A DNA stretch of 64,000 nt from Eukaryota sp. GEM-RC1 (lineage: Eukaryota): the NCBI GenBank assembly GCA_040285855.1, contig JAUFOQ010000002.1, forward strand, positions 868,001-932,000, written 5' to 3'. Positions 1-61,913 of the stretch are shown here, one piece after another. Under the pieces are notes generated by a model that saw only the letters and a list, made by a program, of their open reading frames with translations, did not search any database and was not told the origin of the DNA. The number at the start of each line of letters is the position of its first letter. Within the stretch, counting starts at the first letter, position 1. A program made the translations under genes and the position numbers.

Positions 1-3000
1 GTTAACAAATTTCATTACATTTTTAAATCTTAACAAGCCCAGTTTGTTAATAAGTTATGATTGGCATTTAGATACTTTTCCGTTTTTAGTATCACGATGT
101 AAAAAATTAGAAGTTGACATTGATTATACAATTGATGATTACATTTCTTCTCTTCCATCTTGGTTCCATAGATGGTGCAAACCAACGGAAATTGGTCCTT
201 TTATTCCCTTGACTTGAATTCAGTATTGAAGAAGTTGTATGTCTTTAGAGGTGGTCGGTTTTTGGAAATCGTGACAACAATTATGATGGACATGAATAAT
301 CATTTGAGAACATTTGAAAGTTTTGACAAGGAAAATGTATTCCTTAAGAGAATATTTCATTCTTTAGACAATCCTCTAGTGTCAGTTGAAGAAATGAAAG
401 TGAAAACTGAAGAACGTCAGAACAAGGAGCCATCTGTAAAACTAAAACCCAAGGCTGAAATCGAGATTCGACTGTTAGCAGAATTAACAAAACTTAATGA
501 ACTTTGGGAATCTACAACTTCAAGAGCCACCTTGTTATTGAACTCAATCAATAAGCTGTATTTGATACAATACCTTCTCTTTGATCTTCTCGATGAAAAG
601 AAACAAAAATTAAGAGAACGACCACCAATGAAGGCGGTGAAGAAACGATTAGATAATGTTGTATCAAAGACTAAAGCGAATTGGATGGAATCTTGTGCTA
701 AGAGAGCTCATCAAGTCAGAGTTCGTGGTACACATATGTTGAAACATTTTTTCATAACTAAGTTTCACAACTCTTTAATTTTCGACAAGGTCAAAGAGAT
801 ACTACCTCCCACTGATTACATTTTCACTGTTAAAGAAGAAATTGAAACAGACACTGAAGTTTCAGACACTGAACAAACAGAAATTTTAAGTGAAGAGTTT
901 GTGCCTCAACAATTAGAAGAAACTGAATTGCCTGTATCTTCAGACCCTCATTTTGTTTTCGATCGTACCATTGAATCGGAAATTTTAGATGAAGACAGTG
1001 GAATTTTAGAAGAAGACGGTGATGAAAATGAAACTGGTGAACCTGAACTTGACCTTTTTACTAAAATTCAAATTACCAAATTTGAATTACCAGACTGGGG
1101 AGCCTACTTTAAGAAGGGTCCAATGGGACAACTGTTGGCCATGATGTGGATTCCAAATCACCAATTTTTCAACAGTATTGATCATATTAAAACTGTGGAA
1201 AACTCTTTAAACAACATCATTTCTAATGTAAAAACAACAACTACAAAGAAGGAGTTCGCCCAACACTTCCTATCAAACTACATCCCTCTGTTAGAAACTG
1301 CTGGTGAAATGGTTGGTAAAGATAGGATCGTGTTTCCAAGTGGACTATATTTGGCTAATCCTCTCGGTTACGTTGCAACCGAAATTATTACAAATTATAA
1401 GAACAACATGAGCCAACACTTCCATGAATATGTTTTTCAAGTTTTTAATTTGGTTACTCAAAAGAAAGAGAGAATGGAAGCTATTACCGACAAAACTGAA
1501 AGACAAGAACTCTGTCAAAGGATTAATGAAGTTAGAGAATTGATTATTAATGGTCAAATTTCCAAAATTAATTTTGAAGATAAGCAAGTTTTTACCAATC
1601 CGGAATCTCACTTGAGTATATTATTCTTCAATTATTTGTTCAATTATTTTGAGGGAAAGATGGAGAAAACGATCTACTATGCTGAAAAGAGTGATCCGTT
1701 ATACTTTTTAAGTCATGCACTGTATTTGAACCGTCTCATTGAAGACTATTGTCCTGGTGTAAGAGCAAACAATCCTTTCCCATTGTCTAAATCTTTAATT
1801 CCAAATCATATCAGGTTCGATACGCAATGGTTCCACGAATTATTTCGTAGGGATATTACCCAACCTGTTAAATATAATGAAGTACGGAAGAATATTTGGG
1901 ATTCAGTATTAAAACCTCAGGCTATTCCAGAGTCATTATCCTATGACTTTAAATACACTTCAATTTCGTCAGACGGTTTAAGTTGTAGTTTGTTGATGAT
2001 GAGGAAAGATTTACTTGATGAAAATGGAAATACTCGTGAAAATGTTACAGCAGTTAATCTTGCTTCAAATGAACGATATATTGATTCCTTAGGTGAAGAT
2101 GAAATTGAAGAACTGAATTTAAAATCTAAGAGAATTGTTGCTGTTGACCCCAACCAACATGATCTCATGTATTGTGCCAGTTTAAAAACTGATGAGGAAG
2201 AATCGTGTGAGAAACTTAAAGTTGATGAAACAACACAATTAATAGAAAATGGAATGGCCAATGCTTGTGTTACAGAAATTGATCTTGCTTCCAATGAACA
2301 ATCTATTGATTCCTCAGGTGAGAAGGAAATTGAGCCCAAGCCAGTTACCCTAGTTAGAACAAGAAAGATTGCTCCATTGTCTTCTAAGAAAAGGGGAAGT
2401 TTAAAAAAAATGAAAAAACAATTAAATGATTGGAAGCAAGACACTAACCCACAACCTGTAAAGTGGAAAAGGCGTGACAAATGGAAGGTGTTCCGATACA
2501 CTGCTGGGGAGAGAAAGGCAGATCTTAACAAATCTAAATGGAAACCAAGAAAAAAATCAGCCATCACAGTTCCAAAAGAATTGACAAAGAAAGAAAAAAA
2601 AGAAAAAAAGCTAAAAAAGAACGAAAGGAAAAACGAAATTTCAAAAAACATGAAAGGAAACGTCGCAACAGAGGAATTGTCGAATTGACGGAAAGCAAAC
2701 GATTACAGAGGTACTCAACTGAGTTTGAGAAGAGTGTGTGGAATGGTCAGAAAATACTGGATTCCTACAGTTCAGATACTCCAAGAAGAAAATCATGTAA
2801 ATTGGAAGAATTTTGAAGATACATTGTTAACAATGAAGTTTTCTGTGCATTAATGAGAACAACCACAACTGGAAAAGCAACTGCTGAAGGATTACATCAA
2901 AAGAAAGGACCATCAAAGAAACTACCTAAGAAAGGACCAACTCAACAAATACCTGCTGCAGCTGAAGGTCTTTATGAAGAAAATTTTTTTAGACGTAGAC

Positions 3001-3855
3001 GCCTTACCCAATATTCAAGAAAAGAACGAAATGAACAAAACTTGGTCCACAGATTAGCTCTCCAATATGGTGATCCCAATGAAGTCGTTGTTGGTTTTGG
3101 GGATTGGAATGACACTCAATTCCGAAGAAGAAGGGGTAAGGCAAGTACAGTAAAAGGAGCGACTCTTCGAAACTTGCTAAGAAAATTTGGATTTAAAGTT
3201 TTCTTAGTTGATGAATTTATGACAAGCAAATGTTGCTCTGCTTGTGCTGCTGAAAACCAGGAAGGTATCTGTTCCAATCCTGACTTTGTCAAAGTCATTG
3301 ATCCTCTGTGGAAGAAGAAGGTACAGAAGGAGGAGAAGAAATTGAAAAAAGAAATTATGGAACACAATCAATTAGGCAATGTTGTGAAACGTAATTTTGA
3401 AGATGAATGGACCAAACAGTTGCCATTCATGAAAGCAAGGTTGAAGAGCAAAAAAGTCTCACCATGGGGCTTAGTCCAATGTGCTAAATGTCATGTCCTC
3501 TGGAATAGAGACTTCAACTCTGCTATTAACATTTATAACATTGTAAATGGAATTATCCAAGGTCAAGGTAGACCTGCTGTCCTCGAGAGACCAAAATCTC
3601 AAACAATAACTATCGAGGATGGTGGGATTACAGATCAGGTTCCCAAGAAGAAGAAGAGTGTGAGTAAGTGTCAGTATTGTCATATGGAAGGTCATACAAC
3701 GGCAAAGTGTCCTCAAAGACCTGTGCCTCCTAAAAGTCCCTCGCAAATGTAGTGAATGTAGGCAACCAGGACATGATAGAAGAAACTGCCCAAGTAAGAC
3801 CCAGAAAGATGTACCCAAAGACTCACAAGTAGAGAATGAAGAACCGGAATCCTGA
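1..3855 (+). CDS. Fanzor1 (TnpB-like RuvC nuclease), copy 1; 5' part lies before the window; split by indels
   Basis: Motifs SISSDGLSCSL, RuvC-I RIVAVDPNQHDL, VVGFGDW, RuvC-II FLVDEFMTSKCCSAC, CAKC and RuvC-III LWNRDFNSAINI. Colinear with the copy at 48873-52750. Frame breaks near 200, 2550-2600 and 3735, plus an in-frame TGA at 2814. The frame after 3735 reads KVPRKCSECRQPGHDRRNCPSKTQKDVPKDSQ...ES* (stop 3853-3855), matching the end of copy 2. Confidence 0.9.
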
Positions 3856-3983
3856 ATCTTATAAGTTAGCTCGTCCTAAAAGGCTTGCAAATGAGTGGCT
3901 CATTGTGGTTCGCAATGTGGATCACAATGTGCCAAACTGTGGAGAGAATGTATTATGCATTTGAAATGAAAACCACAGATCGG
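3856..3983 (+). ncRNA. Putative Fanzor omegaRNA scaffold (right end of copy 1)
   Basis: Non-coding blocks shared with copy 2 (AAGTTAGCTCGTCyTAAAAG, AAACTGTG, TTATGCATTTGrAATGAAA, CACAG). Stems TGGC..GCCA (3896-3934) and CTGTGG/CCACAG (3937-3978). Similarity stops just after CACAG. Confidence 0.75.
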
Positions 3984-34979: not shown

Positions 34980-35370
34980 TACTTATAAATGTAACACAAG
35001 TGCATGATGTACTATCAAATGATCATCAATTTGTGAAATGATTTTCAATGTTGCTGTTGCAAGTAATTGCCGATTGCTCATTACTAATGTGTCATTAGCT
35101 AGGATGTAGCCGCTACAGAACTTATCGAGCTTGTATGCATGATACTTTAAGAGAAATACAAACAGATACATGCTATGTTTAAGTCCTACAAAATGCAATC
35201 AATTGTTGAACCAGTTCTAAAACTTTTTAGAAATACATAATTGCAGCGACGAAAAACAAAACCAATTTTTTCGTGAAATGGGAGCAGACGTTGTTGTCAG
35301 TTCTTCTTCAGACAAAATATATGTTGTCGATGTGCTGGTTGTTTATATTTGCAAAGAGACATCCTAAAAC
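34980..35370 (+). pseudogene. Degenerate copy of the RLE retrotransposon at 45.6-46.7 kb
   Basis: GAGCAGACGTTGTTGTCAGTTCTTCTTCAGACAAA... (ADVVVSSSSDKIYVVDV) matches RRADVVVPSSSDKLFVVDV. Confidence 0.7.
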
Positions 35371-45599: not shown

Positions 45600-46700
45600 A
45601 CAACTAAAATTTGATATCATTAAAACAACACCCATCGCTATCAAACCTTACAACAGCTTTGTCCTCATAAAACGAACTCACTGCTAATAAAGCCTTGGAG
45701 ATGATTAGGGGAACTGTTTTAAAAATAGTAAAAACGATCCGATTCAACCATAACATATGATCAAAACGTTTGTTCATCCTATTTTTTACGATTCTTCCGA
45801 AATCGTTTAAAGAATTCAATGCACTTTTTCCTAAACGTCCGTAAATTGAAATAGCAAAGGGGATAATTCGTACTCAACATGTTTTACATGTTTTAAAGCC
45901 ATCAATGGTTTATTGTACTTATCCTGTTTGGCCTGTTCAGAAATGTCTGAAGGAGAAGTTTCAGACGAAGCGTTCTTTAAAGATGTCTTCTTACAAACAT
46001 CCACTGACACTACATCAACAACAAACAATTTGTCTGAAGAAGAAGGGACAACAACATCTGCTCTCCGTTTGCCAAAAAATTGGTTCTGTTTTTCGACATT
46101 ACTATTATTACTTGGTTCTAAAGATCTTAGAAGTGGTTCAACAAATGACTCAATTTTGTAAGACTTACACATAGCATGTATTTGATCTCTTACAGCATCA
46201 TGCATACACGCTCGATAAGTTATGTAGCGATTACAACTTAACAGATGAGAAAACGTTAATTGTTTTCCACATCTATATTGAAGATCATTTGACAAATTAT
46301 ATTGCCATAAATCACAACGAAGTCTCATTGTAGTGGTACATTGATGATCATTTAACAACAAACCATATACTTGTGGAATTTGATTAATTAATGCCACAGT
46401 AGAACTCTCCTTTAAATCAATTTAAAAATTCTAAATTATTATTACATTGTATTATTATTTACTAATAAAAATGTTGGAATGAAGCAAGCTATTCGAAATT
46501 ACTTGAGTTTAGACCTGAGTCGGAGTTTCAATTGGGAGTCAACAATACAATCAGACTGCTTAAAAAGTGGGATCCTTACGCCACCAACACCAAGCAACAA
46601 AGACTGTCAATGGACGAACTCTCAACATTTGATTTATTAGTTAGATCATAGTATTGATAGTTCCAGAAGCAGTTGTAGGAAGATTACCAAATTACAAATG
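45600..46700 (-). pseudogene. 3' part of an RLE-type (CRE/SLACS-like) non-LTR retrotransposon
   Basis: Zinc knuckle CG...HLLSC, HDAVRD, VEP, RRADVV...VVDV and EQAKQDKY fit a restriction-like endonuclease. No RT domain visible. Confidence 0.8.
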
Positions 46701-46727: not shown

Positions 46728-48617
46728 CAGGGATGGGAAATATTGAATTTCCAATCGAATATTGCCAATCATCATCAATATATATTGATTGATCCGCTGT
46801 TTTTCAATATCAATATATTGCCAGAATTGCCAATACAATATGTCTCTAATAAAACAACATATTTACTTTTTCTTCCCTTACATGCCTGACAATAAAGTCG
46901 TTTGGGGGGTCTTTTATACCCTGTAGTCAACAATTGACAGCCATGAAACCTGGAAATGTGTGTGTGGAGAGATCCGAAAACGAAACACTTAGAGTTCATT
47001 CCTGCAACTTCTGTTGAAGTGGAAAGATTATTTTCTCGCATTACTAGTAAGCTTTTTAAGGGCCAAAATCGATTTTGTTTATCGTCAGCAAGATTTGAGC
47101 AATAGGCATGGCTGCTCTTCAATCGAATGTGAACACTTTTAGAAATGCTTGCCAATCCCACTGGTCTGAAGAAGATGAAATCGTTGATGGAGATGGAGTT
47201 TAGAGTCTCAAACATACATGTTGATCACACTCGTTTTGTCAGTGTGATCACAATCACAACCACAATCACAACCACATCACACGATCACATGTGATCACAA
47301 TCACAAATTATGATCACAAATACTGTTTATTGGGAAAAATCAAGTTGATAATGATGTATTATAATATTTATACATATCGAATCGAACTTACATAACCCTA
47401 CAGCTTTCTTTTGCGAACACGATCTATTTCACTGACCTGAGACCAATCTACATCAATGTGCTCCTCCATATCTGCTCCTTCGATCACAAAAGCTTCTCCA
47501 ATATACTCTTATCATCCTCATCCTCATCGTCATCTGTGATGTCGTCAAAAACATCTCTCAAATCAACATTTGCTACCACATCCATTGTATCTGCCGGTTG
47601 TTCTTCTTCTGCCAACAACACTAAAGACCCATATTTCCACATCCAAAAGAACATCCCCCACTCTAGATTTGGTCTCCAGTATTTAGTTGAGAATACCGAG
47701 ATTCAAATTTTTGGGTTCTTGTTTTAGAAGAGGAGTATTGAAATGAATAATCGTCATGTCATCCAAATCATCGTTGGTCAATTTCAAGTTGTTTCAAGTT
47801 GAAATTTTCAACCTTCTTTGGACACCTGGAAGTCAAATGAAGACCAATTCCTTTCTGTTGTAGATGCTGAACCAGTATGGCCTGTTATTCTTTGAGCTAA
47901 TTGACTCAACTGTGGATAAAGCTGTCTACCAACAGAGTACCACCATTGATGGATAGCGAAATTAATGACTTCAGAAGTAGTAAGTTTTGTGGTAAAATCT
48001 ATTGTATGATATAGTATTGTTTGATATCTTATAGCACCCTTGACATTGAAAGTCTTCCTTACCTGATGTGTTTTCATGAACTTTCACGAGCTGGTAAAGC
48101 GGATTGTCCTTGTTACAATCGGATTGGAGAAAAGGAAGTGATGTCATTGTTCGGAAAGGGTAAATGTAGTTTTCGAGCACCAGATTAGACTCTAAACTTG
48201 TGCTCTATACTGTAGAGTGTTGTTGAACAATTAAAACTGGTCTAGGTTTATCACATACATGTATTATATAAATGACGTCACTTCAGTATGGATCACATTT
48301 GAATCACAAGTGATGTGATCACAAATAAAAGGCCAGTGTGATCACATGTGATCACAATCACAATGTGATCACATGTGTTTGTGATCCACAAGTATGGTCT
48401 CAAAACTTAAGACTATTTGTTCGCAACAAATTGTTGCATTTCTTTTGTAGTATAAAATTTAGATAGGTTTTGTTTTGATATCTTTCATTAATTTAAGTGT
48501 ATTAACTATACAATCTACATATTGCAATATTGGCAATATATTGGAGCCACTACTGTATTGATTGGTGAGCTGTTTTCCAATACCAATATATTGCCAATCC
48601 AATATTTCCTATCCCTG
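46728..48617 (+). mobile_element. Non-autonomous hAT element (outer)
   Basis: TIR CAGGGATrGGAAATATTG, TSD CTTATTCT and relic FIPATSVEVERLFS at ~46990. Confidence 0.92.
47213..48396 (-). mobile_element. Non-autonomous hAT element (nested)
   Basis: TIR CATACwTGTkGATCACA, TSD GTCTCAAA and relic WWYSVG..YPQLSQLA...SASTTERNWS. Confidence 0.92.
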
Positions 48618-48714: not shown

Positions 48715-48872
48715 CCACTGTGAATTTCATTCCAAATGCATAAAGGCATAACCCTTCACATTTTCATGATCTCATGAGCAAGCTCGTAAGCAAACTCATG
48801 AGCAAAATTCACAGTTTGACAAATAAATGTCCTCATTCGCAAAGTCTTTTAAGACGAGCTAACTTCATAGAT
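48715..48872 (-). ncRNA. Putative Fanzor omegaRNA scaffold (right end of copy 2)
   Basis: Homologous to 3856-3983. Perfect 10-bp closing stem CTGTGAATTT/AAATTCACAG (48718-48727 with 48805-48814), with inner hairpins. Confidence 0.75.
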
Positions 48873-51800
48873 TCAAGATTCCTGATCTTTCTGGTTTACG
48901 TGTGAGTCCTTGGGTACATCTTTCTTAGGCTTATTTGGACAAGTTGCTCTGTTATGTCCAGGTTGAAAACATATACCACACTTGTTAGGACCTCTGACTT
49001 TTGTTAGAGGACGCTTTGCTTTACCCTTACCCTTACTCACAGTCTTTTTCTTAGGAATCTGATCTGTATTCCCGCCATCCACGACAGGTGTTGTTTGAGA
49101 TTTTGGTCTCTCGAGGATGGCAGGTCTACCTTGACCTTGAATGGTTCCATTTACAATATTGTAAATATTGATAGCAGAATTGAAGTCTCTATTCCAGAGA
49201 ACATGGCATTTAGCACATTCAACTAAGCCCCATGGTGAGACTTTTTTGCTCTTCAATCTTTCTTTTGATAATGGCAACTGGTCTGTCCATTCTTCATCAA
49301 AGTTACGCTCCACAATATTGTGTAATTGATTGTGTTCCATAATTTCCTTTTTTAATTCTTTCTCTTCCTTCTGTAACTTCTTCTTCCAATGAGGATCAGT
49401 GACTTTTATCCTTTCAGGATTGGAACAGATACCTTCGTCGTTTCTGGAAACACATGCAGAGCAACATTTGCTGGTCTTAAATTCATCAACTAGGAACACT
49501 TTAAATCCAAATTTTCTCAATAATGTCCGAATTGAAGCACCTTTCACAGTCGATGCTTTACCTCTTCTTCGACGCAAAGCAGTGTCGTTCCAGTCTCCAT
49601 ACCCAACAACGACTTCATCTGGGTTTCCAAACTGGAGAGCAAATCTGTGAAGCATGTTTTTCTCACTTCGTTCCTTTCTTGAATATTGTGTGAGACGATT
49701 CCTTCTAAACCACCTTTCTTCGTAAATTCCTTCAGTATTTCTTTGATCAGTAGTGGGTGATCGTAGTAAAGAACAGGTAATTTCTTTACCAAGAACAAAA
49801 GCAGAATACAGAGTCAAATCACAAGATTTACTGCCTGGCGAGTTAGAGCCCCATTGATCTAAAATTTGTTGCCCATTTATGTCAATGCGTCTGCCATCTG
49901 GACTGTGAATAAATTGGGTAGAATATTGTTGTAACCGTTCGGATTCAGATAAACAGTAGAGATTGTATAGTCTTATTTTCTTCTCCAGCTTCCTCTTCTT
50001 TCTCTTAGCTCTTTTTCTTTCCTTCCTTGTTTTTTTCTTTTCCATGGAGACTTTTTAATATCGGCATTGCGCTCCCCAGCAGTGTATCTGAATACTTTCC
50101 AATTGTCTCGATTTTTCAACTTGACAGTTGTTGGTTTGTCAATAGTGGGTGCGTCTTTCCAATCCTTCAATTCCTTTTTTAATTTTTTCAAGCTTCCTTT
50201 TTTCTTTGAAGATTTTGGAGAAATCTTTCTTCTTCTGAGATTGGCTGATGTATCGAAACCTTCGATTTCCTTTTCCTCCTTAGATTTTAAAGAAGCACAA
50301 TACATCAAATCATGCTGATTAGGATCAATAGCAACAATTCTTTTGGATTTCAAATTTAAGTTTTGAATTTCTGTGGAACTCAAAGAATCAATGTACCTTT
50401 CAGTAGCTGTGTAGTCAACTGCTTTCACCTTCTTATGAGGATTTCCTTTCCCATCAAGCAGATCTTTCCGCATCATTATTAAACTACAACTAACTCCATC
50501 TGTAGAAATAGAACTGTATTTGAAGTCATGAGACAATGACTTTGGAAGACACTTTGGTTTCAAAACTGAGTGCCAAATATCTTTTCGAACGTCATCAAAG
50601 CTTCCTTTAATTTCTGATGCATAAACTTCTTTAAACCATGTAGTATCCAATCTGATATGATTAGGAATCAATGATTTTGTTAGAGGAAAAGGATTATTGG
50701 CAGTAACACCAGGACAAGAGTCTTCAACAAGACGTTTCAAATACACTGCATGACTTAAGAATTTCAAAGGATCTACTTTTTCAGCATAATAGATTGATTT
50801 CTCCATTTTACCTTCAAAAAAAGTAAACAAATAGTTAAAAAATAGTAAACTCAGTCTAGACTTGGGATCAGGAAACACTTCAACATCTTGAAAATTAATT
50901 TTTGAAACTTCCCCATTAATGATCAACTGTCTGATTTCATTAAGCTTTGTACACAACTCTTGTCGTTGATTCTTATCACTAAGCTTGTTAAGTCTATCTT
51001 TTTCAGGGTAACCAAATTAAATACTTGAAAAACATATTCGTGAAGATGTTCACACATGTTGGTCTTGTAATTTGTAATAATTTCTGTTCCCATGTAATGC
51101 AATATACGAGATAAACGATGACTACTGGGAAACACAATCCTATCAAGTCCAACGGAATCAGCAGCTAGTTCTAAACGAGGAATGTAATGCATCAAGAAGT
51201 GTTGAGCAAACTGATTTTGAGTTGAGCCATCATTTGTGTTAGAAATTATGTTTGTTAACGATTCTTGTACAGTCTCAATATGATTCTGATTGTTTACAAG
51301 TTTGTAGTCCCTAATCGTCATCATAGATAACACTTGTTCCATTGATTTCAACGTAAAAAAATTCTTCCAGTATGGCAATTCAATTTTGGTAGTTTGAATT
51401 TTAGTCCAAAGGTCAGGTTCAGGTTCAGCACTCGCATCTTCAATATTTTCTAATTTAACGGGAGGAGCAGTAGCATCGATAGACTCTGAATGTACATCTG
51501 TTTCTTCTTCAGTTGACTCATCTGTATCAGAATGCATTTCTTGCTTAACAGTTACATTTGGAACAGTAGCAGGCAGTAACTTCTGAATGTAACCTAAAAT
51601 ACCTGAATGGTGAAAATTATGAACAAAAAAATGTTTCAAAAGAGAGAACCACGGACTCTTACTTGATGAGCTCTCTTAACACGAGATTCAATCATTCTAA
51701 TTTTGGATTTCATGATAACATTGTCCAGTCGTTTCTTAACCACTTTCATTGGTGACTTTGAACGTAAGGTTTGCTTTTTGGGATCCAATAGGTCAGCCAA

Positions 51801-54800
51801 CAAGTACTCAATCAGAGGTAATTGTTGAATTGAGTTCATCAACAATAGCGGTCTTGTCGATTCCTTGGCCCAAAGTTCATTTACTTTTCCAAATTTCGAA
51901 TAAATTTCTTTTTAATCTTATCGACCTTCACTTTGGGATTGTCTGGAACTAAAACATTAATACTGTCAATTATGCCATGCAAGTTTTGGACATTATTGAC
52001 CAATTGAACTTCATCAGGATCAGAGTCATGATTAAGATCTTCCAAGCGTTTGACAGTTTCATTTTTAGAAAAATTATTCATTTCAAGAAAAATTTGAACA
52101 ACATTTTCCAAAAAACGGCCACCAGTAAAGACATAAAAATTCTTCAGTACAGCATTCAAATCGAGACTAAAAAACGGACCAAAAGTTGTTTCCTTACACC
52201 ATTTGTTGAACCAAGAGGGAATATAGGGTTTAAATTCTGGAAAAGTAAACGTTGTATTGATTTTGAGGACTTTACAACGTGATACAAGAAAGGGAAATGT
52301 ATCTAAATGAAAATCATAACTCACAAACAATCGTGGACAATGTTGAGTTATGAAGGAAATGAAGTTTTTAAGCATACTGGATTCACTATCTGAAATATGT
52401 AAAGTACACAAATCCAAGTTTGTAGTATCAAAATTGTTATGAGAAAATAAATGTTTTTCATTAAACTCATTATGATCAATGATCTGGATGAAAATTGATA
52501 CAATCGGATCAACAGAAGAATCACGTTTAACTTCTAATTGATCTTCAGCTTCAACTTCAACAGTTTCAATGTCATCATCATCTTGAACAAGTTGAACATT
52601 TCTGCCATTAATTCTTTCTTTTTGGCAAAATCACTTTGAACATGAATTAAACAAAAAGTTGGCAGATTGTTCCAAAGTAGAGGGGATTTAAGAAAGTCTT
52701 GAATTTGTATTTCTTGTTCGATAACCTCAGTGTGTAGATTTACTTCCATATTAAGAATTTCTTTTGAATTGGCGATGGATACGACATAATGGAGGCCTGT
52801 GATTTTTGTGGTAGTTCAGAAGGTGGTAGTTCAGTTAATGATGATAGTTCAGATGGCGATGATAGTTCAGGTAGTGATAATTCAGATGATTCCAATGTGG
52901 ACATACGGCGGTGAGTCTTTCGTATTGGAGTGGCACCAGTTGAAACAAGGGAGCTGGTAGTTCTAAATTTACTTCGTTTAATTAAAGGTGAACCTCGTGG
53001 TGATGGAATATCAGAAATTTTGGCCTTACTTTTTTTAGTGCTTAAACCAGTAGATGTTTTAGTGCTAGCAAGACGTTTACCTGAGATTGGTGACGCAGAA
53101 ACATGCGACAACTCAACAGGACTAAAAGTTTCAAAATGTTCCAAAATTTTTACTTCGAGACTCATGAACATCAATAGTGGTGCAACACAGCAGTTCTTTA
53201 ACATCAGTCCACCTTATGACCACAGATTGATCTACATTCATTAAAAGTTCAATGTATTCGAGAACACAAAAACCAGAGTCAGTTAGAGTATGTTTGATAT
53301 TTGATGGAATAAACCGTATGTCTCTGATTTCAAGGACTGATGAAACTGAATAAATTTGTGACACAATTGAAAATAAATTGGAGGAAGTTGGTGCAACTGG
53401 CGTTTGGTTAGCAGGAAATTCTCTGGCATAATCATCCTCATCGTAGGTCGGATCAATGAATAAAATATGACTTGTATGAGATGAAATGATCAGAATAATT
53501 AAACCCCAATGACGACCATCAGCATTAAGATCGCACATTGCACTATTGACAGGAACAAGTAGCATTTGTTGGTGTTTCTTTTCACCACATTGGAAGAATT
53601 TCTGCGTCAAAAAATCTGAAAGTGGATATTTATCATAGGGTTGGTCACCATATAATAACGGATATAAATCAGTTGGCCTAATTACATAGTCATAAAAGAT
53701 TAAACCTGTTGATTCCACAAGTATTTTGGAATATTTGATGAACAATTGATCGTCAACATAAGTAAACAATTTCTGAATCTGTTTACGGAGATCTGCAGCA
53801 TTAAGTTCATTGTTAACTTGGATTAAAGCACGTTCAATAGATATCAAAGATAGATTGATGCGATCCCTTGAAATGAGTTCAACAAATTTTTGAATATAAC
53901 CAATAACATAAATACCACAGTGATTAGGAGTCTGTGTCTTGGTGATGTTGACCCTCTGTACGTTCAATGTTACTTTCCTACATAATTCATCTACAACAGA
54001 ACTTAGATAAGAAGAACCAACAATTGGATCCACAAATATCGCGTTGTTTTCCGCACAGTCTATTACCATTAGACCCCAATGAACTCCTCCAGATCCACCT
54101 GTTGTATTCATAGCATCGTTGAGAGGAACAGCGAAGTATCTGGTGCTTCTCTCCCGAGCGTCATCAATCTTGTTTTGGCAGTATCCATCAGTGAAAAAAT
54201 CTGACCACATCTCACCGGGAGTAATGAAATAGCATTCCCAATCGAGGTTTGCTTCTTTGAATAGGTGTTTTGAGTATTCGGAAAAGGCGTAATCATCTAT
54301 CCATTGGCCAGGATTCAGATACTCTAGGGAGTCTTTGGACCACGGTCCGGGATTGGACTCAATGTCACCGTCGGCGGTGAGGTCTTTTGGGGACGGATGT
54401 CTACACGGTTTTTCAATAGTACTCGTCCGGTAGACAGAGAGTGAGAGTAATAGTGATGGAAGAATGACTTGAAACAGAGGATGAGACGAGATCAATGTAC
54501 ACGAAGAGGAGAAATTTAAGAAGGGTTGTAAGAGCAATTGGTAGCAACAGAATTGCAACTTCCTTGACACAACACCAAGAACTACATGATCCATTCGAGA
54601 GTCAAACCGCACAATGGATTGACTGTCGAAATAGTTATAAAATCCCGTAGCATTGAAGACGAAGGAACACAATTTGACGTAGCTTATGGGGGAGGGACTC
54701 AGCAACAGCGTAATGGCGACGGGATTCAAGAGACTTGGCAGCAACTCGTAGCAACACAATTGGGGCTTCTTTGGCAACACAAAAGCGGACCTTGACACAA

Positions 54801-55278
54801 CACCAAGAACTACATGATCCATTCGAGAGTCAAACCGCACAATGGATTGACTGTCGAAATAGTTATAAAATCCCGTAGCATTGAAGACGAAGGAACACAA
54901 TTTGACGTAGCTTATGGGGGAGGGACTCAGCAACAGCGTAATGGCGACGGGATTCAAGAGACTTGGCAGCAACTCGTAGCAACACAATTGGGGCTTCTTT
55001 GGCAACACAAAAGCGGACCTTGACACAACACCAAGAACTACATGATCCATTCGAGAGTCAAACCGCACAATGGATTGACTGTCGAAACAGTTCAAAAATC
55101 CCGTAGCATTGAAGACGAAGGAACACAATTTGACGTAGCTTATGGGGGAGGGACTCAGCAACAGCGTAATGGCGGAACTAGAGAACTTGAGCACCGTTTC
55201 CAACATTTGAACCAACCAAGAGTCAATCCGCACAATGGATTGACTGTTGGAGTAGTTTAACGTTTGTAACAGAGACAT
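48873..55278 (-). CDS. Fanzor1 polyprotein, copy 2: leader - 2A - 2x SENP8/Ulp1-like - PolB exonuclease-like - RuvC Fanzor - zinc knuckle (8 frame segments)
   Basis: RuvC motifs RIVAIDPN, GYGDW, FLVDEFKTSKCCSAC and LWNRDFNSAINI. Seven joins (~53140, 52780, 52615, 51885, 51640, 51000, 50033) are each repaired by +/-1 nt in a homopolymer; three are confirmed by the unbroken frame in copy 1. Confidence 0.8.
54343..54384 (-). other. 2A / StopGo ribosomal-skipping motif DLTADGDIESNPGP
   Basis: Exact match to D(V/I)ExNPG|P, in frame and directly before the protease domain. Confidence 0.9.
54562..55174 (-). repeat. 228-bp tandem repeat (~2.7 units) in the leader upstream of 2A
   Basis: Near-identical units with a 228-nt (76-codon) period, plus a partial copy at ~55219-55250. 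Confidence 0.95.
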
Positions 55279-55759
55279 CAAGTACTAGCGGAGTGGCAAG
55301 GAAAATGGATTCTGATAAAAAAAGCGCTACCCTGACTGTGCTCTTCACTTGAGATCCTTAGGTGACATTTTGTCCTTAACTCACATTTTCACTCCCAATT
55401 TTAGGCCCAATTTATGATACTGTGTATATCGGGTCATAATCAGTTGTTTTCTTGTTCTTTGGGTTTTACACAGTTATTTGTTATACAAAGAATCAATATT
55501 GATACACGAAAGTAAGATCAATGAAATCACTTAAATTTTCTTCATATCATTGTGTATTGGGTTTTTAGTTTAGACGCTTTCGAAATTTCAAGTACGGAAT
55601 GCGTACTTCAAATCGCTTCAAGTCCACTTTCCGTACATGAGATTGGAAAAATGAGTAAAAACATATTTAAATGCACTCACGAATTCAACAATATTCCTAA
55701 ACTGAAGCCAGTATATTTTAAAAGTATTAACTGATTTTTAATTATGCTTCAAAAACCAA

Positions 55760-56335
55760 AATTAATGTGACTATCATCAACTAAAAATCAGTTTAATTCT
55801 TGGCTTCATCTATCTTTTTGTATCGTCACCACTTCTCTGCTAAGTTGTACTTTACGGAGAGTATCATCATTTGGTTTATAGATACTGAAATGTAAGGATC
55901 TTTTATGAGAGAACACGAGTGTCTTTTATGAACAAGTAAGCGATGAAAAGTTGAGGGTGTCACGCTTCTATTGAGATAAGTGTGAACTACTTTGGAGATT
56001 TCGTGTAGGAACAAGAGGTTTCTGGGAAAGAACATTCTCAATAAAATCACCGTCATCATTACTGAGAATACAACGGGAGTCCTGAGGATGTACTAGTTTG
56101 GGGTTAAAGAGATCTTTGATTCATCTACAGATAGTTGTTTGGTGAACCCAGAATACTTGAGAAATTTCGGACTGAGAGCGTCCAAGAAAGAAGTAAGTAT
56201 AAAGAGCACCAACTCTGGTATCGGAAGTGGTGTGATAACGGAGTTTTTTCAAGTCAGCTATGGCAACATCATCCAGAGGCCGAAGTTCCCTCCTTAGTTG
56301 AGGCAGTTCAGTAAAAGATCAGATTTATAGGGCAT
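55760..56335 (-). pseudogene. IS630/Tc1-like transposase relic (N-terminal HTH region)
   Basis: Broken frames read YHTTSDTRVGALYTYFFLGRSQSEISQVFWVHQTTICR*IK...FIENVLSQKP/LLFLHEISKVVHTYLNRSVTPSTFHRLL. Confidence 0.6.
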
Positions 56336-56797
56336 ATCAGCTTGACAAAAATGAAAGACTAGAAGTGAAAATTCTTGATAAGCACCCGAAATAAAATCCA
56401 CAGTAATCAGACAGATGAAGAAAATGTCATAAGTGAAGATAATAGATGTGTTGTTAAGTATGTCAGAAGAAAATCTATAAAATTCCTCCCTTCATATGAT
56501 CATCAGCAACACTTTCAAGAACAAGAGGAACACTGCAATTACGACACTCCTCGACATTCAAATACCGGCTCTTACAGAAACATATGGCCTTTCGTGTGGG
56601 CTGACTCTCCTGCCATGGACGCTCAGTAGAATCAGGATAAGGAATCCTGGTCTATATAAAGTGAAAACTCCTGTGAAAAAGGAGAAAGTCCCGAAAATAT
56701 TAGCTGAACTTTCAACTTTTTGTGAAAACTTCATCTCTGCCATTGCATTGGTTTTTTCTTTGAACCAACCAAAGTCATTTTAATTAATTTCAATGGC

Positions 56798-57790
56798 GTG
56801 TGTACCGAACAAACTGTATCTAACCCTTTGGATACAGCCCCATGTGATAATTTTGTAAAAATATTAAAACAAAAATGGGATCTCTCACTTCAAGAGTCTG
56901 AGACTGTTCCAGTTGCTCATGAAGTTACAGAATCAATTTCAACTGACTTAACAGTTGAACTTTCTGAACCTGTTGCTTTAGAACAAGTTGATGTTACTAT
57001 TCAAACAGAATGTACTCTTGACTCAAGTACTGAACTTTCTGAATCTGTTGAACTTACTGTGGCTCTATCACAATCTCGAAATCCTTTGGACGCTATCCCA
57101 GTTAAAGAATTTAACCGTGTATTTTATTGTGAAGCTAATAGAAAATTGTGGGGAAAATCATCTAGGGAATTATTGGAAATTCTTCAGAACGATGATGAGT
57201 CTACAGATGATGATGATGAAGATGAAGATGATGAAGAAAACGAAAATGAAGAAAACAATTTACAAGTATTGTCAGCCAGTGATGGAGACGCTTGCTTTAG
57301 TTATTGGTGTAGCATCCCAAAAGGGGTTTGTAAGGTCTTACTATCTACTGAAACTGAAGTTATGATTAATGATCCAGAACATTATGCCAGAAAAAATGCT
57401 TGGGAACTGTTAAATGTGGTTGTTACACAGCAAATGAAGATTTTATGTCCTCTGTGTGCTTTTGGGGACCCCATTGGGTCACATAGAGGAGTTGGACATT
57501 TTTTCTTGGTGGAATGGTTCTTTGATTTAAATTCTCGAAATCATATTTTTAACATATATGATAGTATGAACTTTTCATGTATGAAGAAATTTATTATTTT
57601 ACCTTTTCGAACCTTGTTAAGGAACATCAACAGTGGAGGGAGGATCAGGAATTACCTTGGATTTAGTGAAACAGAAGCACAAGGTACCTTATCTTCAGAT
57701 AGAATGGCATCAACGAGTGCTAGGAGAGAGATCTCATGTTTGATTTGTAAGATCAAGGGGGTGACTTTAAAAGACTCGGATATGTATTGA
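56798..57790 (+). CDS. Ulp1/C48 protease-like protein, apparently truncated (His and Asp present, catalytic Cys not seen)
   Basis: KILCPL...GHFFLVEW...FNIYDSM after an acidic stretch; no QxxxxDCG follows. Confidence 0.5.
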   Translation: MCTEQTVSNPLDTAPCDNFVKILKQKWDLSLQESETVPVAHEVTESISTDLTVELSEPVALEQVDVTIQTECTLDSSTELSESVELTVALSQSRNPLDAIPVKEFNRVFYCEANRKLWGKSSRELLEILQNDDESTDDDDEDEDDEENENEENNLQVLSASDGDACFSYWCSIPKGVCKVLLSTETEVMINDPEHYARKNAWELLNVVVTQQMKILCPLCAFGDPIGSHRGVGHFFLVEWFFDLNSRNHIFNIYDSMNFSCMKKFIILPFRTLLRNINSGGRIRNYLGFSETEAQGTLSSDRMASTSARREISCLICKIKGVTLKDSDMY

Positions 57791-58043
57791 AGTGCTCGAA
57801 AGTAGTCCAAGGACAAGAAACATTGCTTGTCATCAAGCTCAATCTCAGCACCAACATCACATTTTACAAAGACATATAATTTGACATATGAGACGATAGA
57901 AAGCTGATGATGGTAGAATAAGCTGCTAAGAATCAGCTAAGAACCATCATATTCCATACAGTTGAGGTAGATATATAATTTATAATGAAAGGAAAGTTTC
58001 CCTGCACAATCTGCATCTTAAACATCACCACTTCACACACTCA

Positions 58044-60089
58044 ATGTCCATTATCAACACACTTACAGACGAACAGGCTCACGTCTTCCAAGCTATAACT
58101 CATGCTAGACCTTCTAAGCGTAAGAATTTCTTCATTACTGGTGGTGCCGGATCGGGCAAGTCTTACCTACTGTACTGTCTTAAACAGTGGTGGTCTAATG
58201 CGGGTTCCAAGCTAATGAGACCCAATGGCCATGTCTTTTTTACTGCTACTACTGGTGTTGCTTCCACTGTCTTTGGTGGTCAAACCCTACACTCTCTCTT
58301 TGGTTATAATTTTATCCGTAATGAAAAACCAATATCTGATGTCATTCGCTCTATGCCTTCAAGTGTTAAGTCTGTTTTACGAACAATTAGTGCTCGAAAT
58401 TCAATGCTTGTTATTGATGAAATTTCAATGTTGACTGCTGAATTATTCAACAGAGCATCTGATATATTTAAAGATTTAATGAAGTCTCAGTTACCATTTG
58501 GTGGACTTCAAGTTGTAATTTTTGGTGATTTTTTGCAACTTGCACCAATTGTAAAGTCTGATTCAAACACACGTAAGGTCCTTCAACTTTCAGACTTTAC
58601 GTTTTCATCACAGTCTTGGAAGGATTTGAATTTAAATTTTATTGAATTATCTGGAAGTATTCGACAACAAAGTGATGTCAATTTTTATAATTTTTTGAAT
58701 GAACTACGTCTCGGACTTTTTGATGACTATATGAAACATATTTTATTGAAACATAAGTCATTAGCCAAAAATATTGAAAGTCCAACCAAATTATTTGCTA
58801 GAAACAAGGATGTCGCAGACGAAAATTTAAAGCAATTTGAATTATTATGTGAACAAGGGAATGAAAATGTTGAATTTCATTCCCTCGATAAGTTCAATGA
58901 AACCTTAATTAAATCAGAAATTGGTAAAAGTTGGGCATTTGGTAAGCCTAATGAGGAACAAATGGAAAAGGCTGTTGGTTTAAATTTAAAAAAATTATCA
59001 AGTAGGCTAAACGATTTTGCCGAACAAAAATTTCACTGTGTCGTCGGGGGTTTGGTAATGTTTACCCAAAACAAACCAGATCTGGGCCTAGTAAATGGGT
59101 CAAAAGGCAAAATTATTGATTTCTCTGAAAGTTCACATTTCATTAATGTAAGATTCGGGAGGGACGAAGAACCAATCAAAATTATTCCGACTAAATTTGA
59201 AATTGAGGTGTTGAATGAGAAGAAAAAGCCTGTTATTATAGCATCCCGATTGCAATATCCTCTTCGTCCTTGTTGGGCAATAACAGTCCATAGATCTCAG
59301 GGTCTAACAATTGAAGGAATTGAAGTTTCCTTAAATTTTTGGGAGTATGCCCAATTGTACGTCACATTGAGTAGGGTGAAGAATTGGAACTCAATTAAAA
59401 TTTTAGATATTTCTTCCAGATTTCCCAAACCAAGAATTGATCTTTATCAGTGGTATTATTCCACTTTTCACCCCCCTCGACCAGTTACAAAACCTCTTTA
59501 TCCTTTGTCTTTACAAAATGAAAATATTGTTAGAAATTGGCCTTCTGTGTTGAAAACTTTTGATGCCTTTTCGTCCAATATGATTTCTAGTGTTGGTGAT
59601 AGTATGGAAACTGTTGATGTTCTTGATCCAGTCAATGAAGAAATTGAGGAAGATTTGGTGGAAAAAGATGTTCCAAGTATTGAAAATTTGAATACCACTT
59701 CTAATTCAGTTTTAGAATTATTCGATAATGAAGTTGTTGTCTCTGGAAGTGATGGTGGAGATGACGAAACTGATGATGATGACGATGCGTCGTCTAGTAT
59801 GAATGATTTTGTTGTGAATGATGATGAAGATGAGTGTCTCAATGGTCAAAGTGTAAGTGCCATCAATTCTGATTTAATTTTTACCAAGCCTGTGCCAAAA
59901 CTGAAAAAAACAACAGTTACTACTTTGCCTAAATTGAGACCAAATCTATTGTCTCGAAATACTCTCAAACCAAATTTGAATTTACCTAGTTTGAAATTAT
60001 CAAAAAAGTTACAGATCATGAGGACACTGAAGTCGTCAACAGAATATCAAATTCACTTGATCTTCAGACAGACTTTGAAAACAACTTGA
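58044..60089 (+). CDS. PIF1-family 5'-3' DNA helicase with acidic C-terminal tail
   Basis: Motifs FITGGAGSGKS, TATTGVAS..FGGQTLHS, VIDEISM, PFGGLQVVIFGDFLQLAPI, RQQSD, LVNGSKG, QYPLRPCWAITVHRSQGLT and QLYVTLSRV. Confidence 0.93.
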   Translation: MSIINTLTDEQAHVFQAITHARPSKRKNFFITGGAGSGKSYLLYCLKQWWSNAGSKLMRPNGHVFFTATTGVASTVFGGQTLHSLFGYNFIRNEKPISDVIRSMPSSVKSVLRTISARNSMLVIDEISMLTAELFNRASDIFKDLMKSQLPFGGLQVVIFGDFLQLAPIVKSDSNTRKVLQLSDFTFSSQSWKDLNLNFIELSGSIRQQSDVNFYNFLNELRLGLFDDYMKHILLKHKSLAKNIESPTKLFARNKDVADENLKQFELLCEQGNENVEFHSLDKFNETLIKSEIGKSWAFGKPNEEQMEKAVGLNLKKLSSRLNDFAEQKFHCVVGGLVMFTQNKPDLGLVNGSKGKIIDFSESSHFINVRFGRDEEPIKIIPTKFEIEVLNEKKKPVIIASRLQYPLRPCWAITVHRSQGLTIEGIEVSLNFWEYAQLYVTLSRVKNWNSIKILDISSRFPKPRIDLYQWYYSTFHPPRPVTKPLYPLSLQNENIVRNWPSVLKTFDAFSSNMISSVGDSMETVDVLDPVNEEIEEDLVEKDVPSIENLNTTSNSVLELFDNEVVVSGSDGGDDETDDDDDASSSMNDFVVNDDEDECLNGQSVSAINSDLIFTKPVPKLKKTTVTTLPKLRPNLLSRNTLKPNLNLPSLKLSKKLQIMRTLKSSTEYQIHLIFRQTLKTT

Positions 60090-60170
60090 ACAATACTTAT
60101 AGTATTGCAATGCAGACAGAAACAAAGGTTCTCACAATTGTCCACGTCCACAATATTGTACCAGAGAAAA

Positions 60171-61912
60171 GGTAAATTGACAAGTTACCAGACAACATTG
60201 GGTAAATTGACAAAACTTTTTGAGGAATTGTCGCACGACATTTTTTTTCTCGTGTCATAAAGATTGTCACTATATCATCAATTTTGAACGTCAATTACAA
60301 GTTTTTATTGATGCAGAATATCATCATATAACTACTGAGTTCTGGGTTGACGGCGTGGTGGCTCATCGTTCTCTACACAAGTTCTTCTGTTATGGCCCCG
60401 TTGTCCACACACAGTACACGTTACCCTTCTGTCGATATTCTGGATATCAGCTCGAACAACCTCGTTGGAAGTTTGGTTTCTTGAAGGATTTCGTGGTCTG
60501 CCTCTTTGAGGGATATCTTGTCTTCTCGGATTCTCAGGTCGTTGTTGCTCGGATAACAACTGTTTCAGTTTAGGGATCAATAAGCCCTTCTGGATGGAGG
60601 AAAGACTCTCAATGCTGTTCCAAAGAAACATCAGTTCAGAAGAGGTATCAAGAGGGGGATCTTGAGGAATTGGAGGATCTAACATAGCAATAGATGGCTC
60701 TGGGTTTAATTGCCATTGAGGATGGAAAGAGTTGACAGAAAGCTGCTCATCAGCAGCGACCGGCAGCAGTGACCGGCCCATTGGTGTAATCTACTTAGCC
60801 ACTGACTGTCAACATATTTTACAAGTGAATGTTCCTCACCTAGAGTGGATACAATTGTTTCCCAAGTTGCAAAAAAATCTTCTTCTGATGCTGCATAAGC
60901 CATCTGCTTAAAACAGTTGTTGAATGAGTCTAATTCTTGACTCAAACCAAAGCACTTCATCTCTTTGGTTTCATGATGTGCCATAAGCACAATAAATGAC
61001 TCGCATGTGGCACTAAAGATTGGATTGCATTACACAACGCCAAATCTCTGTCAGTAACCACAACAGACAATTCAGCCATAGATGCGAAAACATTTTGAAA
61101 TGCCTGTAATGCCCATCTGTAGTCATTTTCCGTTTCAGTGGCAAGAAAAGCAAATGCTAGAAACAGTGACTTATTCTGCATTGTTTTTGTGCCATATACA
61201 AGCAATGGCATTGAATGGATATTTGCATTGTACGTACAGTCCAAAGATAGCACGTATTTGTACCTATTACCTAGTTCAACAGCATCAATGTGTGTAAGAA
61301 ACAGATTTCTCACAGTGTTATCTTCATTGAAGCAGACATCGTACTTCCAATCTGCTCTAGTTTCAAGAGTTCTGAATAAACTGTCAATCTCGCGGAGACC
61401 ATCTGTCTGAATTTTTTTCCATCTCTTTTCCAATTGCTAAGTTCATCATACAAGAGAGGACACGCTGAGATATCGAGGGCATCAGGGGTTCGAGAGGGAT
61501 ACAGGACTCTAAGGGTTTTCAGGATATCACGTGAGGTTTGACCAGAAGCACAAAGACTGTGAATTTCTTGAGAATGATCAAGGCTCCACCAACGTCGGAA
61601 AGTAGCATGAGCGGCTAAGTTTTCAACAAAGGAGTGTTGAGAGTGGATCCCATCAGTGTCTACGTTGCGCCAAAAGCCATCCTTGAGGTGGATATAAATG
61701 CGAAACGTGCACCCTGTTTTCTTGGACTGGTTATGAGCAGCATATCCACGATTTTCCCTGTCACAAATGAGATAGCAGTAGGAATCACCAGAAGATCTAA
61801 GACTTAGAGCAAAACCTTGTTCAAAAGCCCATCGTCTGAGTGTTTGCTCTAGATCGTCTCGAGTGTCAAACTCGTAAAGAGGTGGCTTTGTAATTCGAGG
61901 ATCCTGTGACAT
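60171..61912 (-). mobile_element. MULE/Mutator (FAR1-like) transposase, internally deleted and frameshifted
   Basis: WAFEQGFAL...SKKTGCTF, LDCTY...MPL, AFAFL..E...Y.WAL, VTDRDLAL...LLCLWHI and C-terminal RGRP...CTVCGQRGHNRRTC. The catalytic-E/SWIM region is missing. GGTAAATTGACAA repeats at 60171 and 60201 mark the probable end. Confidence 0.88.
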
Positions 61913-61913
61913 A

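What the first reader, a model, noticed from the sequence alone, without database searches (positions are those of the whole stretch)
54343..54384. 2A/StopGo motif in a DNA-element nuclease ORF
Seen: KDLTADGDIESNPGP sits in frame exactly at the border between a repetitive hydrophobic leader and the first folded domain. Known: D(V/I)ExNPG|P causes ribosomal skipping in picorna-like viruses and some non-LTR retrotransposons. Inference: it releases an ~1,800-aa protease-Fanzor protein starting with Pro, and may tune its output.
Basis: partly seen in the sequence, partly recalled or inferred. Interest (0 to 1): 0.8.

Follow-up and report, generated by a model that had tools for sequence, protein, structure and literature searches.

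The report
Ribosome-skipping signal in giant Fanzor elements
A virus-style ribosome-skipping (2A) motif lies in frame between a repeat-built leader and the first folded domain of a Fanzor-nuclease gene, likely of an anaerobic protist; it is kept in related proteins from two species and likely strips the leader from a long, predicted RNA-guided nuclease fusion, although this copy is frameshifted as assembled and skipping is untested.

Summary
Observation confirmed, on the minus strand. DLTADGDIESNPG|P (54384-54343) is the only canonical 2A core in the window (chance about 4e-5). It follows a 311-aa leader built from 228-nt repeats and sits directly before a Ulp1/SENP8-like protease; a PolB-type exonuclease domain and a Fanzor1 nuclease follow. 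The motif is a family trait. 11 of 14 relatives found with the protease query carry it; the other 3 lack the N-terminus. A single 1,473-aa record from a second Skoliomonas species, found through its Fanzor end alone, has 2A + exonuclease + Fanzor1 and no protease. Leaders differ completely between copies while the 2A stays. Best reading: StopGo releases a Pro-starting Fanzor fusion from a disposable, variable leader. Caveats: here the ~1,820-aa product needs seven frameshifts read through (404 aa as assembled; all 6 that could be localised are single-base indels at homopolymer runs). This copy alone, 1 of 28, lacks the upstream aromatic residue. No transposase or element ends at the left were found, and activity is untested. 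2A is known in LINEs; my searches found no report for Fanzor. New variant of a known kind; interest 0.65.

The parts
54343..54384 (-). 2A/StopGo motif DLTADG-DIESNPG|P; predicted skip between Gly (54348-54346) and Pro (54345-54343)
   Evidence: upstream class
54391..54393 (-). Position -17 of the motif: Ser here, Phe (22) or Trp (5) in the other 27 of 28 proteins
54346..55278 (-). Leader frame from the first in-frame ATG to the Gly of the 2A: 311 aa, five in-frame Met, no Pfam family above its curated cut-off
54562..55174 (-). 2.7 x 228-nt tandem repeat (76-aa unit, one Met per unit); only the 2A frame of six is free of stops
53780..54342 (-). Ulp1/C48 protease domain 1, SENP8-like; His, Asp, Gln and Cys present (limits approximate)
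   Evidence: (PF02902, E 1.9e-5)
53200..53700 (-). Second Ulp1-like repeat; His and Asp kept, Ser in place of the catalytic Cys, so likely inactive (limits approximate)
   Evidence: sequence read directly; two stretches for P0005/P0002
52760..53130 (-). Ser/Pro/Thr/Lys-rich linker, after the first frame change (~53150)
52060..52700 (-). PolB-type 3'-5' exonuclease-like domain; acidic motifs look degenerate here, present in P0016 (limits approximate)
   Evidence: (PF03104, E 4.3e-6)
49100..51250 (-). Fanzor1 nuclease, in three frames as assembled; RuvC Asp 50326-50324, Glu 49484-49482, Asp 49187-49185, C4 zinc finger
48933..48983 (-). C-terminal CCHC zinc knuckle (below Pfam cut-off); stop codon 48875-48873
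48718..48850 (-). Structured 3' end, candidate omega-RNA scaffold; likeness to the sister copy ends at CACAG (48718), the likely right end
   Evidence: (z -4.5)
1..3978 (+). Second, 5'-cut copy of the family (exonuclease end to Fanzor, CACAG at 3978), 69-78% DNA identity; its 2A region lies outside the window

Best explanation
This is a family-wide 2A motif at the front of a long Fanzor1 gene, and it likely makes the ribosome skip the Gly-Pro bond, which would cut loose a variable, probably disposable leader and release one Pro-starting fusion protein (optional Ulp1-type protease, exonuclease domain, predicted RNA-guided nuclease). Shown by sequence: the motif, its position, the domains, their order, conservation of the motif against unrelated leaders and diverged proteases, and one unbroken 2A-exonuclease-Fanzor1 record in a second species. 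Inferred: that translation starts at one of the ATGs in the repeat leader; that the repeats are 5' regulatory units whose peptide is a by-product; that the 2A gives the same N-terminus whatever leader or start codon is used; that most frameshifts here are long-read homopolymer errors or recent decay of a once continuous frame; that the element moves with a transposase supplied in trans. This particular copy likely skips less well than its sisters because it lacks the upstream aromatic residue.
For: Only canonical core in 64 kb, chance 3.6e-5. Upstream hexamer DLTADG with Asp12 and Ser15 is motif 4 of Li et al., whose tested representative gave almost 100% StopGo in reticulocyte lysate (PMC12846837 section 10). 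11 of 14 relatives (own protein left out) from the two searches with the 2A+protease region carry the core just before the protease, one as D-T-E; the other 3 start inside protease repeat 2. P0016 (1,473 aa, labelled Eukaryota sp. TZLM3-RCL), found with the Fanzor C-terminus only, has W-RR-NLVLDG-DVEANPGP at residue ~110, then exonuclease and full Fanzor1. Against the window copy, 9 chosen relatives share 10-14 of 14 motif residues but 18-41% of the protease and 0-3 of 24 leader residues. Position -17 is Phe or Trp in 27 of 28, matching the W of the WV(R/K)DLTx[acidic]G signature. Leaders: 42-384 aa, 14 of 28 internally repeated, 11 different units of 23-76 aa, 9 of 11 with a Met; in the window only the 2A frame is open (3.2% of shuffled units are open in a given frame). 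All 6 localisable breaks are single-base indels touching homopolymer runs of 4-5 (background 0.16-0.21 each), each read through by a relative; host-type genes in the window break likewise; the assembly of the named relatives is Nanopore R9.4 plus Illumina correction (bioRxiv 2023.05.03.539051). Third codon positions differ most between the two Fanzor copies (142 vs 93 and 48; 93 vs 52 and 40).
Against: No activity data. No single record spans 2A-protease-Fanzor: the longest protease-bearing relatives end at 789-878 aa, and P0003 and P0016 are gene models whose DNA I could not see (P0003 skips residues at one junction, so it may be intron-bridged). The same out-of-frame tails recur in several copies (P0011, P0012, P0013 and the window; P0001, P0002 and the second window copy), which fits inherited decay as well as systematic error. 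This copy has Ser at -17; W-to-A abolished and W-to-F cut 2.3-fold the activity of class B peptides (PMC12338488), though that is by analogy: the same paper's table files the identical 14-mer as class A, untested. Many 2A-like peptides of LINEs were weak or inactive (PMC3708506). 2 of 30 proteins start at a Met inside the motif, with no open leader called (P0024, P0027), and one relative has a decayed core (P0033). The 17 further 2A+protease proteins came from a profile that contained the 2A, have no organism names, and are not known to precede a Fanzor. Copies are related, so counts are not independent; only in-frame repeats can be seen in proteins.
Confidence: 0.55

Rival explanations
1. The 2A is active, but its main job is to lower the amount of downstream nuclease by ribosome drop-off (self-restraint of a toxic DNA cutter); leader removal is secondary. 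Compatible in part with the best reading.
For: Proposed for L1Tc and other LINE 2As (PMC3708506 section 14); 59-70% of tested retrotransposon 2A-like peptides reduced protein abundance (bioRxiv 2026.06.17.732966 section 13). Phe instead of Trp in 22 of 28 would give partial activity by analogy.
Against: The tested motif-4 example skipped at almost 100%; attenuation does not explain why the unrelated leaders stay in frame and open.
Confidence: 0.15
2. In this lineage the long frame is really broken: the 2A-protease front is a separate short gene or the family has decayed, so no protease-Fanzor fusion is made; only the protease-less form of the second species is one protein.
For: Seven frame changes here, others in the second window copy; shared out-of-frame tails across copies; no protease-bearing protein above 878 aa among 3 hits of 3,227 long candidates; P0009 and P0010 end just after the protease.
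Against: Each of 6 localised breaks is read through by some relative and lies at a homopolymer run; overlapping records tile 2A to RuvC-I; host-type genes show the same breaks.
Confidence: 0.13
3. The motif is an inactive relic picked up from an RNA virus or a LINE and spread among copies by recombination; the protein is made from a downstream ATG or as an unskipped fusion.
For: The closest metagenome matches to the peptide are in RNA-virus contigs (L001, L002); leaders and proteases are shuffled between copies at the motif (P0013 and P0009 pair a P0001-type leader with other protease types), which could homogenise it; Ser at -17 here.
Against: Kept in a second species whose Fanzor is only 36% identical, with changes at free positions and retention of the aromatic, Leu, Asp-Gly and core; none of 15 proteins starts between the motif and the end of protease domain 1; a downstream start would cut off the W-I-D-D motif.
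Confidence: 0.1
4. The leader is itself a functional product (membrane, secreted or ORF1-like peptide) and the 2A makes the element bicistronic.
For: Open frame of 311 codons where five other frames are closed; Odon et al. suggest 2A can replace a separate ORF1.
Against: No shared sequence or length among leaders; hydrophobicity as expected from base composition, best 19-residue window 1.55; no Pfam family above cut-off.
Confidence: 0.07

Closest known systems
2A-like peptides of APE-type non-LTR retrotransposons (L1Tc, Ingi, CR1, Crack, L2; Odon et al. 2013, PMC3708506, passages and section 14 read)
   Same: 2A near the N-terminus of a mobile element's long ORF, directly before the first folded domain; a range of active and decayed versions; some LINEs with 2A-like peptides also carry deubiquitinase domains.
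   Different: No APE or reverse transcriptase here; the downstream enzyme is a Fanzor1; leader 42-384 aa and often tandem-repeated, against about 40-80 aa; DLTxDG upstream type.
StopGo upstream motif 4 (DLTxDG) of RNA viruses (Li et al. 2026, PMC12846837, section 10 and passages read)
   Same: DLTADG before DIESNPGP, Asp at p12, Ser at p15; aromatic residue at the W position in the family.
   Different: Cellular mobile element, single motif; Phe in most copies, Ser in this one. Rao et al. list the identical 14-mer as class A, origin unclassified, untested.
Fanzor1 (SpuFz1 8gkh, PpFz1 9cf0; Bao and Jurka 2013 PMC3627910; Saito et al. 2023 PMC10432273; passages read)
   Same: D...[TS][TS]xx-C4 zinc finger...RD motif, best solved-structure hits are Fanzor1, structured non-coding 3' end.
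   Different: 2-3 times longer through N-terminal protease and exonuclease domains and a 2A; nearest other Fanzors are 732-747 aa or about 612 aa in viral contigs, 0 of 20 loci with a 2A core.
Unclassified MCi-2 Fanzor1 elements of Mucor circinelloides (PMC3627910, passage read)
   Same: Variable 5' regions joined to a conserved Fanzor-coding 3' part; no recognisable terminal inverted repeats.
   Different: No 2A, protease or exonuclease mentioned in that paper's main text (protease 0, exonuclease 0); MCi-2A/2D have 11-12-bp target duplications, none found here.
Ulp1-carrying mobile elements (NeSL and Utopia-1_TSP retrotransposons; PMC4640811, passages read)
   Same: [quoted passage not shown]
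   Different: Those are reverse-transcriptase elements; here the protease is fused ahead of a Fanzor1 and behind a 2A.

Membership tests
2A/StopGo peptide | Core D(V/I)ExNPG|P | tested here: met
   DIESNPGP at 54366-54343
2A/StopGo peptide | Recognised upstream context (motif 4 DLTxDG, Asp12, Ser15) | tested here: met
2A/StopGo peptide | Aromatic residue at the W position of WV(R/K)DLTx[acidic]G | tested here: not met
   Ser in this copy; Phe/Trp in 27 of 28 proteins. Not part of the core definition; importance shown only for class B peptides
2A/StopGo peptide | In frame within an ORF, with start codons upstream | tested here: met
   five in-frame Met upstream, 311 codons open; actual translation not testable
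2A/StopGo peptide | Co-translational skipping at Gly-Pro | not testable with these tools
   needs a reporter or N-terminal proteomics
Fanzor1 | RuvC Asp-Glu-Asp with TSxxC4 zinc finger and RD motif | tested here: met
   IAIDPN-type Asp, DEFKTSKCC, WNRD read; PF07282 E 1e-8; invariant columns
Fanzor1 | Closer to Fanzor1 than to Fanzor2/TnpB | tested here: met
   only SpuFz1 (E 5e-8) and PpFz1 (E 1e-4) hit in the PDB search; no tree built
Fanzor1 | omega-RNA at the element's right end | tested here: inconclusive
   conserved, structured 3' end closing in a CUGUG/CACAG stem in both window copies, z -4.5 and -2.4; the automatic two-sequence consensus did not recover it; no Rfam family above gathering score; expression not seen
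Fanzor1 | Intact coding frame | tested here: not met
   seven frame changes as assembled; unbroken in the relative P0016
Fanzor1 | RNA-guided DNA cleavage | not testable with these tools
   needs biochemistry
Ulp1/C48 protease (clan CE) | His-Asp-Cys triad with Gln | tested here: met
   domain 1: HWG, FVDP, QTPNHCG; domain 2 has Ser for Cys
Known DNA-transposon superfamily (Tc1/mariner, Helitron, MULE, hAT) | Own transposase | tested here: inconclusive
   none inside the gene or in P0016; a broken HTH fragment at 56264-55829 scores 0.80 to HTH_33 clusters, a lead only
Known DNA-transposon superfamily (Tc1/mariner, Helitron, MULE, hAT) | Terminal inverted repeats or target-site duplication | tested here: not met
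   nothing above 8-nt chance matches within 55200-57200; left end not known, so it may lie elsewhere
2A-bearing non-LTR retrotransposon | Reverse transcriptase and APE or RLE endonuclease in the same ORF | tested here: not met
   no such Pfam family in the six main frames of the element or in P0016

The most novel reading that the evidence does not exclude
A distinct class of giant Fanzor1 elements in skoliomonads in which StopGo frees an RNA-guided nuclease fused to a working 3'-5' exonuclease and, in some lineages, a de-SUMO/de-NEDD8 protease, from an exchangeable tandem promoter-ATG leader whose copy number sets expression. The fusion would cut at guide-matched empty sites, trim the ends and disarm host silencing, so that the element spreads by homing-like repair with little or no need for a transposase.
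Probability: 0.15. Interest if true: 0.87.

Novelty: new variant of a known kind. Interest (0 to 1): 0.65.

Why it matters
StopGo is known from RNA viruses, retrotransposons and a few genes; in the searches made here it has not been reported for Fanzor/TnpB or for a DNA-type element. If active, it shows translational recoding controlling a eukaryotic RNA-guided nuclease, extends StopGo to a deep metamonad lineage, and offers a natural Trp/Phe/Ser series at one exit-tunnel position with many unrelated leaders, which makes the open question of why mobile elements keep N-terminal 2As directly testable. The Fanzor1-exonuclease(-protease) fusion is itself an architecture I did not find described, and the unbroken 1,473-aa relative is a ready candidate for biochemistry.

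Tried and rejected
No whole genome is held for the window, so copy number, linkage of 2A to Fanzor across copies and the left end stay open. No sequencing run was listed, so the frameshifts could not be checked against reads. The cluster look-up could not be made, so the unnamed relatives have no organism. Metagenome scan with the 2A+protease alignment: 2 loci of 133 pattern matches, both RdRP-bearing contigs matching the 2A only. Viral contigs: nothing for P0016; 20 loci with ordinary Fanzor relatives, none with a 2A core. ESM Atlas gave no usable hit for P0016 250-1473. Single-sequence fold of the 404-aa product was unusable (pLDDT 40) and was not searched. Ribozyme or other RNA family in the leader: no Rfam match above gathering score; the repeat unit folds no better than shuffles (z 0.2). 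Leader as signal or membrane peptide: rejected on composition. Programmed frameshifting as the cause of the breaks: considered; seven shifts, relatives reading straight through, and no full X_XXY_YYZ slippery site (pattern recalled) at the shared junction near 52620 make it unlikely. Earlier-finding look-ups by place and sequence were empty.

Full report
Observation. The coordinates 54343-54384 read DLTADGDIESNPGP on the minus strand, in a stop-free frame 55284..53131. It is the only D[VI]ExNPGP in the six frames of the window, where 3.6e-5 are expected from residue frequencies. Upstream lies a 311-codon leader from the ATG at 55278, mostly a 2.7-copy array of a 228-nt unit. Only the 2A frame of the array is free of stops (0 against 3-15 in the other five); 3.2% of 20,000 shuffled units are open in a given frame. 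The leader's hydrophobicity (0.52) is within what shuffled T-rich DNA gives (0.43 +/- 0.28). The Ulp1/C48 domain starts right after the final Pro, so the border claim is right.

Anatomy. After the motif come a SENP8-like protease with its His, Asp, Gln and Cys, a second copy with Ser for Cys, a low-complexity linker, a PolB-type exonuclease-like domain, a Fanzor with all three RuvC acids and the C4 finger, and a zinc knuckle. The best solved relatives of the nuclease are the Fanzor1 proteins SpuFz1 and PpFz1; of the protease profile, a rhizobial NopD domain and SENP8. A second family copy at window 1-3978 shares the 3' end up to CACAG; each end folds into a structure closed by a CUGUG/CACAG stem of different length (z -4.5 and -2.4), a candidate omega-RNA, though the two-sequence consensus fold did not recover it. 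No reverse transcriptase, transposase, terminal repeat or target duplication was found; a broken HTH fragment upstream is a weak lead. 'DNA element' is therefore inferred from the Fanzor1 identity.

The long frame. Pro codon to final stop is 1,823 codons, but as assembled the frame ends after 404 aa and changes seven times. Six junctions could be localised against relatives that read through; all six are single-base indels (five missing, one extra) touching runs of 4-5 identical bases, against a background of 0.16-0.21 per site. The seventh (~50040) lies in an A-rich stretch with no close in-frame relative. Host-type genes in the window (SNF2, AAA/bromodomain, BspA) also change frame at such runs (that these are single chains is recalled). 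All named close relatives are labelled Eukaryota sp. GEM-RC1, a Skoliomonas, a free-living anaerobic metamonad, whose assembly was made from Nanopore R9.4 reads with Illumina correction (bioRxiv 2023.05.03.539051, section 5 and passages); the host is likely this organism or a close relative. Assembly error is thus plausible, but slippage mutations fall in the same places, some tails are shared between copies, and no reads were available.

Conservation. Two searches with the 2A+protease region returned 15 proteins, one the window's own; 11 of the other 14 carry the core directly before the protease (one as DTE) and 3 begin inside protease repeat 2. The strongest evidence is independent of the motif: a search with the Fanzor C-terminus for longer proteins gave 3 hits, of which P0016 (1,473 aa, Eukaryota sp. 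TZLM3-RCL, 36% identity) is one record with a ~110-aa leader ending WRRNLVLDGDVEANPG|P, a linker, an exonuclease with its acidic motifs in place and a full Fanzor1, and no protease; the other two are 732-747-aa Fanzors without 2A. So the 2A travels with the Fanzor and the protease is optional. A profile search of 1.84 billion representatives gave 28 of the top 150 with a core: 23 in front of a Ulp1-like domain (17 new, unnamed) and 5 multi-2A polyproteins; that profile held the 2A, so this count is enriched by design, and linkage of the 17 to Fanzors is unknown. For 9 chosen relatives the motif keeps 10-14 of 14 residues while the protease keeps 18-41% and the leader 0-3 of 24. Leaders run 42-384 aa; 14 of 28 are internally repeated, with 11 different units, 9 holding a Met. 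Two further proteins start at a Met inside the motif and one has a decayed core. Ordinary Fanzor relatives in viral contigs are about 612 aa and 0 of 20 loci hold a core.

Is it active? DLTADG with Asp12 and Ser15 is upstream motif 4 of Li et al., for which the tested example reached almost 100% StopGo and whose signature begins with a Trp (PMC12846837 section 10). At that position 22 of 28 proteins have Phe, 5 Trp, and only the window copy has Ser. In class B peptides W-to-A abolished and W-to-F reduced activity 2.3-fold (PMC12338488 passages); this applies by analogy only, since that paper's table lists the identical 14-mer as class A, untested. The family is likely active; this copy is doubtful.

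Mechanism. Most likely the 2A acts as an N-terminal insulator: ribosomes start at any in-frame ATG in a leader that expands, contracts and is swapped between copies, and StopGo releases the same Pro-starting Fanzor fusion. The promoter role of the repeats, the skipping and the supply of a transposase in trans are inferred. Attenuation, as proposed for LINE 2As (PMC3708506 section 14; bioRxiv 2026.06.17.732966 section 13), may be added. Rivals are real decay or separate genes, an inactive relic, and a functional leader peptide.

Novelty. N-terminal 2As in LINEs are known, as are Ulp1 domains on retroelements and Fanzor1 elements with variable 5' regions. I found no report of 2A in a Fanzor or DNA-type element: searches (Fanzor + ribosomal skipping: 0 papers), 81 and 101, seen as listings; term counts in the main texts of four 2A surveys (Fanzor and TnpB 0 in the three where asked; transpos and nuclease 0 in the fourth), in Odon et al. 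(DNA transposon 0) and in two Fanzor papers (exonuclease 0; protease 0 or methods only); supplements of two surveys held no label of these organisms. The library lacks most subscription papers, and I did not see the supplements of Li et al. or of the Fanzor catalogues, which could list these proteins. Verdict: new variant of a known kind, interest 0.65.

Noticed in passing
window 6398-6441, 32094-32455, 39320-39440: Host-type genes (SNF2 helicase, AAA/bromodomain protein, BspA leucine-rich repeat) change frame near homopolymer runs, suggesting uncorrected indels across the assembly.
   Followed up: partly
P0016 residues ~275-560; window 52060-52700: Fanzor1 fused to a PolB-type 3'-5' exonuclease domain; acidic motifs present in P0016, degenerate in the window copy. 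Not found described in the Fanzor papers checked.
   Followed up: partly
P0001, P0009, P0013, P0003, P0010: Leader types and protease types are mixed between copies with the 2A as the fixed joint, pointing to recombination at the motif.
   Followed up: partly
window 55829-56264 (-): Broken Tc1/IS630-like helix-turn-helix fragment just upstream in the same orientation; Atlas HTH_33 score 0.80, lead only.
   Followed up: partly
window 55729-55793 and 55585-55613: Two hairpins (15-nt and 12-nt arms) upstream of the leader; either could mark the element's left end.
   Followed up: no
window 45831-46421 (-) and ~35000-35370: Two related fragments that look like the restriction-like endonuclease end of a non-LTR retrotransposon (motifs recalled).
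   Followed up: no
window 47808-48083 (-), 48519-48607: hAT-like dimerisation-domain relic (recalled motif) and a long hairpin directly beyond the element's right end.
   Followed up: no
window 56726-64000: Mobile-element cluster: ORF without Pfam family with a protease-like GHF..W..IYDS stretch (56726-57790), Pif1 helicase (57966-60089), broken MULE (60330-61945), DDE_1 transposase (62480-64000).
   Followed up: no
L001:4100-4190, L002:5870-6200: RNA-virus-like metagenome contigs carry near-identical DLTADG-type 2A peptides, a possible source class for the motif.
   Followed up: partly
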